Below the pieces are notes generated by a model. The model worked only from the letters and a program-made list of their open reading frames with translations, was not told the origin of the DNA and searched no databases. From a virus (Duplodnaviria > Caudoviricetes), in the IMG/VR virus record IMGVR_UViG_3300012952_000032, positions 1 through 44,291 of that record: a stretch of DNA of 44,291 nucleotides, one strand, 5' to 3'. A program made the translations under genes and the position numbers. Below, one piece after another: positions 34,057 through 34,128 of this stretch. Each line of letters starts with the position of its first letter. Position 1 is the stretch's first letter.

Positions 34057-34128
34057 TTACCTGTTGCTGAAATACATAGTGATTTCAAAGCCAAGTCTTA
34101 CGTTTTCGAATGTAGGTTTTGTCCACAT
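34057..34128 (-). CDS. pqqA: Pyrroloquinoline quinone precursor peptide PqqA, 23 aa (not in ORF track)
   Basis: [28 protein letters not shown] start and R.GFE.TMY core with the E-x3-Y pair; GAGG SD 8 nt before ATG. Confidence 0.93.

What the first reader, a model, noticed from the sequence alone, without database searches (positions are those of the whole stretch)
34057..34128. Stand-alone phage pqqA (PQQ cofactor precursor) directly behind the major capsid gene
Seen: a 72-nt ORF with its own GAGG SD, too short for the ORF track, encoding [23 protein letters not shown]. It lies between the capsid terminator and the next head gene. Established: PqqA is a ~23-aa ribosomal peptide whose Glu and Tyr (E-x3-Y) are cross-linked by PqqE/PqqD and matured by PqqB/C into PQQ, one peptide per cofactor. 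This peptide closely follows the proteobacterial MWTKP...R.GFE.TMY pattern. No pqqB-E is in the window. Inference: the phage supplies only the stoichiometric substrate from its late operon, boosting host PQQ-dependent dehydrogenases (alcohol, methanol or sugar oxidation) during virion assembly; alternatively it acts as a decoy for PqqD/E. I recall pqqA being noted in some aquatic viral metagenomes, so novelty may lie in the context and function rather than the presence.
Basis: partly seen in the sequence, partly recalled or inferred. Interest (0 to 1): 0.88.

Follow-up and report, generated by a model that had tools for sequence, protein, structure and literature searches.

The report
Phage PQQ precursor behind capsid gene
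A marine phage that likely infects Pseudohongiellaceae, ocean bacteria rich in PQQ-dependent dehydrogenase genes, carries an intact, conserved 23-codon copy of the bacterial gene pqqA right behind its capsid gene, and likely feeds this peptide to host enzymes to make more of the cofactor PQQ late in infection; phage pqqA was reported in 2020, but we found no report for this host group.

Summary
Real. Window 34128-34057 (minus strand) encodes a 23-aa PqqA above both curated cut-offs, with its own SD, between the capsid terminator and the next head gene; no pqqB-E was found. It is an accessory insert: 6 of 80 capsid relatives have it, in two separate clades with empty-site sisters, and it is under purifying selection (10 synonymous, 0 replacement changes against L265). 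The likely host family is Pseudohongiellaceae: the att-like tRNA-Asn piece beside the integrase matches 111 of 121 family genomes but 9 of 301 in the order, and the closest cellular PqqA (22/23) sits in their pqq operons. All 121 encode quinoprotein dehydrogenases, only 38 a single pqqA. The Glu-x3-Tyr core is intact in 239 of 239 viral copies found without requiring it, which favours substrate over inert decoy. Expression and benefit are untested. Viral pqqA is in print (Lake Baikal, PMC7678222), and this scan found it before on other DNA, mostly in methylotroph phages. New here: the host family, and the behind-capsid slot shared by four capsid families.

The parts
34057..34128 (-). pqqA, 23-aa PQQ precursor peptide; reactive Glu15 and Tyr19
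   Evidence: Translation; PF08042 40.4 bits; TIGR02107 49 bits; 10 synonymous and 0 replacement differences to L265
34137..34140 (-). Shine-Dalgarno GAGG, 8 nt before the pqqA ATG
   Evidence: Sequence
34151..34195 (-). Predicted intrinsic terminator (hairpin plus U6) after the capsid gene
   Evidence: Fold -24.6 kcal/mol; equivalent hairpins in L005, L006, L067, L076; not listed by the scan; z -1.36
34208..35359 (-). Major capsid protein, 383 aa, N4-gp56 type
   Evidence: PF13252 151 bits; TIGR04387 67.7 bits, cut-off 60
33604..34050 (-). 148-aa conserved gene of unknown function that follows the capsid gene in relatives; starts 6 nt after the pqqA stop
   Evidence: Located downstream of the capsid gene in 75 of 80 related loci; weak phrog_2498; followed by two SU10 adaptor genes
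9045..9100 (-). Predicted attP core: 3' part of a host tRNA-Asn(GUU); used for host prediction
   Evidence: 56/56 identical to G008; host matches are complete tRNA-Asn genes in 12 of 12 loci; 111 of 121 family genomes against 9 of 301 order genomes
7814..8926 (-). Tyrosine integrase next to the att-like piece (temperate lifestyle inferred)
   Evidence: PF00589 62.7 bits; excisionase-like neighbour 7520-7810 (phrog_575, weak)

Best explanation
The phage carries an intact pqqA gene directly behind its capsid terminator, and late in infection it likely makes this peptide from read-through of the head transcript so that the enzymes of a likely Pseudohongiellaceae host would convert it into extra PQQ. 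Shown: gene identity, position, purifying selection, invariant reactive residues, absence of maturation genes in what is sequenced. Inferred: the host family (att site, peptide type, a related prophage); co-transcription with the head-completion genes, which start 6 nt later and leave no room for their own promoter; processing by host PqqD/E/B/C (established pathway: PqqE with PqqD cross-links Glu and Tyr, one peptide is consumed per cofactor). PqqA is the only consumed part of the pathway and is single-copy in these hosts, so 72 nt is the cheapest way to sustain PQQ supply for dozens of periplasmic alcohol and sugar dehydrogenases while host transcription declines. Untested: that PQQ rises and that burst size benefits.
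For: HMM hits above cut-off. Selection: 10 synonymous/0 replacement changes against L265/L298; pS 0.40-0.48 against pN 0.11 for L067/L072, which were found through the capsid and not through the peptide. Glu-x3-Tyr intact in 119 of 119 and 120 of 120 viral copies found with patterns that end before the Glu (redundant contigs included). Peptide type tracks host: window type matches Pseudohongiella-titled genomes at 22/23 inside pqqA-B-D-E-C operons, while cultured Methylophilaceae phages carry another type. Host: att match 111 of 121 against 9 of 301; related prophage in family genome G404, 14 of 47 window proteins hit in the same order. Demand: TIGR03075 in 121 of 121 family genomes; 35 frames above the PF01011 cut-off in the 2.1-Mb genome G009, 34 with it as best hit, against one pqqA. 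Repeated use of the slot: two clades in this phage group and four different capsid PHROGs directly upstream of pqqA. No PqqE and no quinoprotein gene in 20 of 20 pqqA-bearing viral records, 4 of them at least 90% complete.
Against: Accessory: 74 of 80 capsid relatives lack it in the slot; 38 of 47 whole records lack it, including 3 of 3 that are at least 90% complete. Only 38 of 121 family genomes have pqqA and 37 pqqC, and the att site cannot tell producers from non-producers: four of the best att matches in the family sample (G365, G381, G422, G373) gave no pqqA. No cellular PqqA identical to the phage's was found among 19 loci. It lies behind a predicted terminator, and late timing leaves limited time for maturation. 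134 of 154 viral copies examined were not placed behind a capsid gene, so late expression is not general. In Acetobacter, overexpressing pqqAB raised PQQ by only 29% against eightfold for the whole operon (PMC7936290, passage), so the precursor need not be limiting. No expression evidence.
Confidence: 0.62

Rival explanations
1. Lysogen benefit: the gene is expressed from the prophage through an unrecognised promoter and acts as an extra host pqqA copy, like the orphan copies of methylotrophs.
For: The phage has an integrase and att-like site; family genomes are single-copy for pqqA; stand-alone extra copies are strongly expressed in Hyphomicrobium (PMC9851590, passage).
Against: No sigma-70-like site between the capsid gene and pqqA; only 22 nt lie between the U-run and the ATG; no terminator separates it from the head genes downstream; no shared upstream element with host pqqA seen by eye. 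Many other carriers, such as the T4-like Melnitz records, are not of this temperate type (lifestyle recalled).
Confidence: 0.12
2. The PQQ is made for use outside the infected cell's energy metabolism: released at lysis, it would occupy a PQQ importer used as phage receptor, or feed PQQ-scavenging relatives that are the next hosts.
For: About two thirds of the family encode quinoproteins without pqqA/pqqC; PQQ blocks infection by a PqqU-binding E. coli phage (PMC12124388, passages); the slot implies late timing.
Against: No PqqU-like protein found in 5 of 5 family genomes with the E. coli query (no positive control); the TonB receptor beside the G009 pqq operon scores 76 bits against a cut-off of 1200; the phage receptor is unknown; blocking receptors of future hosts would hurt progeny.
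Confidence: 0.1
3. Decoy or sink: the peptide binds host PqqD/PqqE and lowers PQQ synthesis or diverts SAM use.
For: One change (Phe for Tyr at position 7) from the closest cellular peptides is shared by the window and L265 despite saturated synonymous sites.
Against: Reactive Glu and Tyr intact in 239 of 239 viral copies; Phe at that position also occurs in cellular PqqA inside full operons (L206, L218).
Confidence: 0.07
4. Neutral passenger recently picked up from the host.
For: Patchy presence; small size costs little.
Against: Synonymous divergence from hosts is near saturation (pS 0.78-1.04) with the peptide kept; 10 synonymous/0 replacement changes between phages; about 3300 viral stretches estimated to hold an intact motif, with full ORFs in 120 of 120 read.
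Confidence: 0.04

Closest known systems
Cellular PqqA (Pfam PF08042, NCBIfam TIGR02107), Pseudohongiellaceae type
   Same: 23 aa, W-x-K-P leader, R-x-G-F-E-x-T-M-Y core; 22 of 23 residues identical to L217, L220, L225.
   Different: Not followed by pqqB-D-E-C; sits in a phage head operon; Phe instead of Tyr at position 7.
Viral PqqA of Lake Baikal population VP_266 (Coutinho et al. 2020, PMC7678222; passages read)
   Same: Phage-encoded pqqA proposed as an auxiliary metabolic gene that raises PQQ for host dehydrogenases; no experiment reported in the passages.
   Different: That virus is T4-like, freshwater, predicted to infect Methylophilaceae and also encodes methanol dehydrogenase. This one is a marine, integrase-bearing phage with a P22-like portal, predicted to infect Pseudohongiellaceae, with no quinoprotein gene found.
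Virus-encoded pqqA/pqqD/pqqE in reservoir sediments (PMC13188868; passages read)
   Same: pqqA listed among viral auxiliary genes.
   Different: A list entry under phosphate solubilisation; no gene context or host for pqqA in the passages seen (its Table S4 was not read).
Unannotated pqqA of cultured Methylophilaceae phages (Venkman, MEP301, MEP401, MEP402, P19250A, Melnitz)
   Same: Stand-alone intact pqqA; 5 of 5 isolate peptides tested pass TIGR02107; not annotated as pqqA in the 5 of 9 records opened.
   Different: Different peptide type; not behind the capsid gene in the five records opened, and on the strand opposite the flanking genes in Venkman.
Orphan extra pqqA copies in bacteria, e.g. 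five copies in a Hyphomicrobium strain (PMC9851590; passages)
   Same: A stand-alone precursor gene served by a distant maturation operon.
   Different: Chromosomal; the predicted host family here has one copy in each of 38 positive genomes.

Membership tests
PqqA (PF08042 / TIGR02107) | Score above the curated cut-off | tested here: met
   40.4 against 21.1; 49 against 20
PqqA (PF08042 / TIGR02107) | About 22-24 aa with Glu-x3-Tyr near the C-terminus | tested here: met
   23 aa, Glu15 and Tyr19
PqqA (PF08042 / TIGR02107) | Own translation signals and purifying selection | tested here: met
   SD; 10 synonymous/0 replacement
PqqA (PF08042 / TIGR02107) | Cross-linked by PqqE/PqqD and matured to PQQ | not testable with these tools
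   Needs complementation or in vitro assay
Complete pqq biosynthetic cluster | pqqB, C, D, E next to pqqA | tested here: not met
   None in the window; no PqqE in 20 of 20 related viral records; window record is 75% complete
Phage auxiliary metabolic gene | Host-derived gene flanked by viral hallmark genes, not contamination | tested here: met
   Between capsid and adaptor genes; same junction in independent contigs
Phage auxiliary metabolic gene | Host has the pathway it feeds | tested here: inconclusive
   Family: quinoproteins 121 of 121, pqqA 38, pqqC 37; exact host species not resolved
Phage auxiliary metabolic gene | Expressed during infection and changes host metabolism or phage fitness | not testable with these tools
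   The one RNA run with any match was uninformative
Moron (self-contained prophage cassette) | Own promoter upstream and own terminator downstream | tested here: not met
   No sigma-70-like site between capsid gene and pqqA and no terminator after it; 6-nt gap to the next gene; other promoter types not covered

The most novel reading that the evidence does not exclude
Phages of several unrelated families have independently captured the one consumed part of PQQ synthesis and repeatedly placed it behind the capsid gene, so that infection of PQQ-producing Pseudohongiellaceae overproduces a cofactor that most of their relatives cannot make. Viral infection and lysis would then be a source of PQQ for ocean quinoprotein (probably lanthanide-dependent) alcohol and sugar oxidation well beyond methylotrophs, and carriage of pqqA would mark phages of producer hosts.
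Probability: 0.2. Interest if true: 0.8.

Novelty: new member of a known kind. Interest (0 to 1): 0.52.

Why it matters
Phage pqqA is in print as a one-line auxiliary gene of methylotroph viruses and has not been tested in the papers seen. This locus extends it to a second marine host family whose genomes carry dozens of PQQ dehydrogenases but usually no, or one, pqqA. It shows selection on the viral peptide and recurrent insertion into the slot behind the capsid gene. Because the gene is below ORF-calling limits and has no PHROG, its breadth (about 3300 IMG/VR stretches estimated) is largely hidden from auxiliary-gene surveys. If functional, it is a minimal way for a virus to steer host respiration (supplying a consumed cofactor precursor, not an enzyme), the peptide type is a useful host marker, and the idea is cheap to test by complementation and in cultured Methylophilaceae phages.

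Tried and rejected
Plus-strand reading: unrelated peptide; the overlapping 121-aa plus-strand ORF 33860-34225 is open in near-identical L002 but not in L067 (longest frame 73 aa), so it was treated as a shadow. The 35-aa GTG-start extension scores lower, starts inside the terminator stem and is frameshifted in L001. Contamination: rejected; the two Acinetobacter 'phage' records are the contrast case (the one opened has a full operon). Expression: 1 of 4 RNA runs held any match; it gave 150-175-nt contigs at depth 2-7, one covering 33930-34086 (30 nt of pqqA), but also pieces on the integrase and at 10368-10518, so DNA carry-over cannot be excluded and it is not used as evidence. Host prediction for relatives through tRNA pieces: 0 of 47 records. 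The G404 prophage lies beside tRNA-Pro, 10 kb from tRNA-Asn, with no second att copy in the 80 kb read, so it supports the host family but not this att site. PqqU receptor idea: not found in 5 genomes, no positive control. Leader RNA or host operator, leads from earlier notes: Rfam found only the tRNA piece and no shared upstream element was seen by eye; no motif search was run. No complex prediction was sent, because the peptide is under 30 residues. Pooled pN/pS of 0.16 over 39 viral alleles is biased low by the search pattern and is not relied on. A review on PQQ biogenesis was not held. Literature searches found no paper on pqqA in Pseudohongiellaceae phages; one search listed 30 of 60 hits, subscription journals are mostly missing, and no supplements were read.

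Full report
Observation. The ORF lies on the minus strand, 34128 to 34057, and encodes [23 protein letters not shown]. It scores 40.4 bits on Pfam PqqA PF08042 (cut-off 21.1) and 49 bits on TIGR02107 (cut-off 20); a loose motif never arose in 300 shuffles of the window. GAGG lies 8 nt before the ATG. The capsid stop is 79 nt upstream, and most of that gap is a hairpin with a U6 tail (-24.6 kcal/mol; missed by the scan because of its 10-nt loop; z -1.36 against shuffles). The next gene starts 6 nt after the pqqA stop. The window is the whole record, linear and about 75% complete, with terminase, P22-like portal, N4-gp56-type capsid, two SU10 adaptors, lysozyme, holin and a tyrosine integrase among 54 proteins scanned. 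No pqqB-E was found.

An accessory insert under selection. Of the best 80 IMG/VR loci with a related capsid (80-95% identical), 6 carry pqqA, all in the same slot. The next head gene was located in 75 of the 80; the slot is otherwise empty (about 50-80 nt) or holds a 147-aa protein or basic Lys/Arg-rich proteins. A capsid tree of 82 rows (window, the 80 loci and L265; L269, L278 and L286 gave no capsid hit and were left out) needs two changes: one group holds the window, L265 and L001-L004, the other L067 and L072, and each has close empty-site sisters (L005, L006; L076) that keep a terminator and run straight into the next gene. Over whole records, 9 of 47 have pqqA, all in this slot, and none of the 3 that are at least 90% complete. 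The window and L265/L298 encode the same peptide with 10 synonymous and 0 replacement differences; against L067/L072, found through the capsid, pS is 0.40-0.48 and pN 0.11. The peptide is therefore maintained but dispensable.

Host. A 56-bp piece next to the integrase (9045-9100) is the 3' part of a tRNA-Asn. A pattern for the window's peptide type found 19 loci in the GTDB collection; 18 lie in pqq operons, and the closest peptides (22 of 23 residues, Tyr for Phe at position 7) are in L217, L220 and L225, the first two titled Pseudohongiella sp. PqqB, PqqE and PqqC of L217 pass their NCBIfam cut-offs. The att-like piece matches 51-56 bp at 96-100% in 14 of these 18 genomes, 56/56 in G008; in 111 of 121 genomes drawn from the family of G009; but in only 9 of 301 drawn from its order, 8 of which are also in the family sample. 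One family genome, G404, holds a related prophage: 14 of 47 window proteins hit in the same order, capsid 53%. The tool gives no family name; Pseudohongiellaceae is taken from record titles.

Host demand and supply. All 121 family genomes match the PQQ alcohol dehydrogenase model TIGR03075, 120 above cut-off. In G009 (2.1 Mb) I took the 35 distinct frames listed (37 further matches over five genomes were not listed): all 35 pass the PF01011 cut-off, 34 with it as best hit, and 26 of 34 rows covering the site have Asp-x-Asp at the active site, the signature of lanthanide binding as I recall it. This fits a report of up to 70 lanthanide PQQ dehydrogenases per genome in Pseudomonadales UBA9145 (PMC11996626, passages; that UBA9145 belongs to this family is recalled). 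Yet pqqA was found in 38 of 121 genomes, always once, and pqqC in 37 of the same 38. Incomplete assemblies explain part of this, but most of the family appears to use PQQ without making it. This limits the host claim: the att site does not separate producers from non-producers, and four of the best att matches in the sample gave no pqqA. The peptide type and its maintenance argue for a producer. G404 gave no pqqA and its prophage has an empty slot, a single consistent case.

Breadth. A motif scan estimated about 3300 IMG/VR stretches (from 3 of 64 parts). All 120 returned are full ORFs of 23-25 aa and none has pqqB-E nearby (80 with up to 5 kb of flank, 40 with 300 nt). The window's type gave 80 stretches, none with pqqB-E; 20 of the longer records gave no PqqE and no quinoprotein. 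With patterns that stop before the Glu, Glu-x3-Tyr is intact in 119 of 119 and 120 of 120. Among GenBank phages, 12 records matched: 9 from cultured Methylophilaceae phages, 1 uncultured, and 2 Acinetobacter records, of which the one opened is a bacterial pqq operon; the 5 isolate records opened do not annotate it and their peptides pass TIGR02107. Of 154 viral loci, 96 had a same-strand ORF within 200 nt upstream, forming 45 groups; I scanned 15 of the 45. Capsid genes of four PHROGs (334, 267, 283, 371) lie directly upstream, covering 20 of the 154 loci when grouped copies and tblastn capsid hits are counted. The slot is recurrent but not the rule.

Mechanism. Established (recalled; also cited in PMC7936290 and PMC9851590, passages): PqqE with PqqD cross-links Glu and Tyr of PqqA, PqqB and PqqC finish the cofactor, and the peptide is consumed. 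Inferred: the head-completion genes behind pqqA have no room for a promoter, so read-through of the capsid terminator must serve them and passes pqqA first; the phage thus makes precursor late in infection and relies on host enzymes. The most likely purpose is to sustain periplasmic quinoprotein respiration during assembly (0.62). Against it: the gene is dispensable, the precursor may not be limiting (pqqAB gave 29% more PQQ against eightfold for the operon in Acetobacter), and nothing here shows expression. Rivals are expression from the prophage (0.12), PQQ acting outside the cell on importers or scavenging kin (0.10; precedent in PMC12124388, passages, but no PqqU found in 5 genomes), decoy (0.07) and neutral cargo (0.04).

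Prior art. Coutinho et al. 2020 report PqqA in a Lake Baikal methylotroph virus and propose the same boost (PMC7678222, passages); PMC13188868 lists viral pqqA/D/E (passages). The Melnitz paper mentions PQQ only as a medium component in the main text (PMC9004378, term search); PMC11118758 mentions a PqqA family co-expressed with defence systems (passage). Searches found nothing on Pseudohongiellaceae phages with pqqA; supplements were not read and may list more. Earlier notes of this scan describe phage pqqA in eight other genomes, and none was returned for this host; I had found the isolates and the Baikal paper before reading them.

Verdict. A genuine, selected, stand-alone PqqA: a new member of a known but untested kind of viral gene. 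What this locus adds is a well-supported new host family with an extreme quinoprotein load and patchy PQQ synthesis, repeated insertion behind capsid genes, and evidence against an inert decoy. Interest 0.52.

Noticed in passing
Family of G009, 121 genomes; G009 loci L321-L351: All sampled genomes encode PQQ dehydrogenases, often dozens, but only about 31% have pqqA/pqqC, suggesting family-wide PQQ scavenging through an importer that is not close to E. coli PqqU. A TonB receptor follows pqqC in L217 (9498-11582) and is a candidate.
   Followed up: partly
L007:4171-4614, L014:3199-3657, L012:4198-4293 and other loci: The slot behind the capsid terminator is a swap site in this phage group: a conserved 147-aa Ala/Gly/Thr-rich protein (no Pfam or PHROG hit; possibly a capsid decoration protein) and very basic Lys/Arg-rich proteins of 30-175 aa (no hits for the one tested) occupy it in other relatives.
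   Followed up: partly
window 34051-34062 (-) against L005:4215-4235: The last pqqA codon (AGG) sits where the empty-site sister L005 has the AGGA SD of the next gene, so the insert may have reused that SD as its final Arg codon, coupling translation of the 148-aa gene.
   Followed up: no
L093:300-1541 and 13 similar loci (L227, L234, L294, L295 and others): In large phages (records up to 340 kb) the same peptide type follows, by about 10 nt, a 408-414-aa gene with a signal-peptide-like start and no Pfam or PHROG hit; its C-terminus recalls copper monooxygenase domains (recalled, untested). A second host-derived gene may travel with pqqA there.
   Followed up: partly
L228, L235, L251, L259, L291, upstream of pqqA: The upstream DNA encodes a short reading frame that resembles a tmRNA tag peptide, so pqqA may follow a phage tmRNA gene in these contigs.
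   Followed up: no
L101, L108, L120, L229 and about 28 similar loci: In another phage group pqqA is packed, with 9-18 nt gaps and often overlapping stop/start codons, among small basic genes (DUF6321, phrog_7595); the window has a phrog_7595 gene too (35871-36158).
   Followed up: partly
L214 (5-kb contig): A stand-alone pqqA of viral type in a genome titled Verrucomicrobiales; its upstream DNA is nearly identical to viral L297, so it is probably a mis-binned phage contig.
   Followed up: partly
G404:C1 about 2385000-2433000+ (L353-L356): A related prophage beside tRNA-Pro in a family genome; it shows the replication genes and order that may be missing from the window's record.
   Followed up: partly
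window 35608-35580 (-): A 10-of-12 sigma-70-like site about 220 nt upstream of the capsid gene; could be the capsid promoter, but such sites are no more frequent here than in shuffles.
   Followed up: no
GenBank CAKLQF020000010.1 (L206): A record filed as Acinetobacter phage is a bacterial contig with ppk and pqqBCDE; its pqqA is unannotated.
   Followed up: yes
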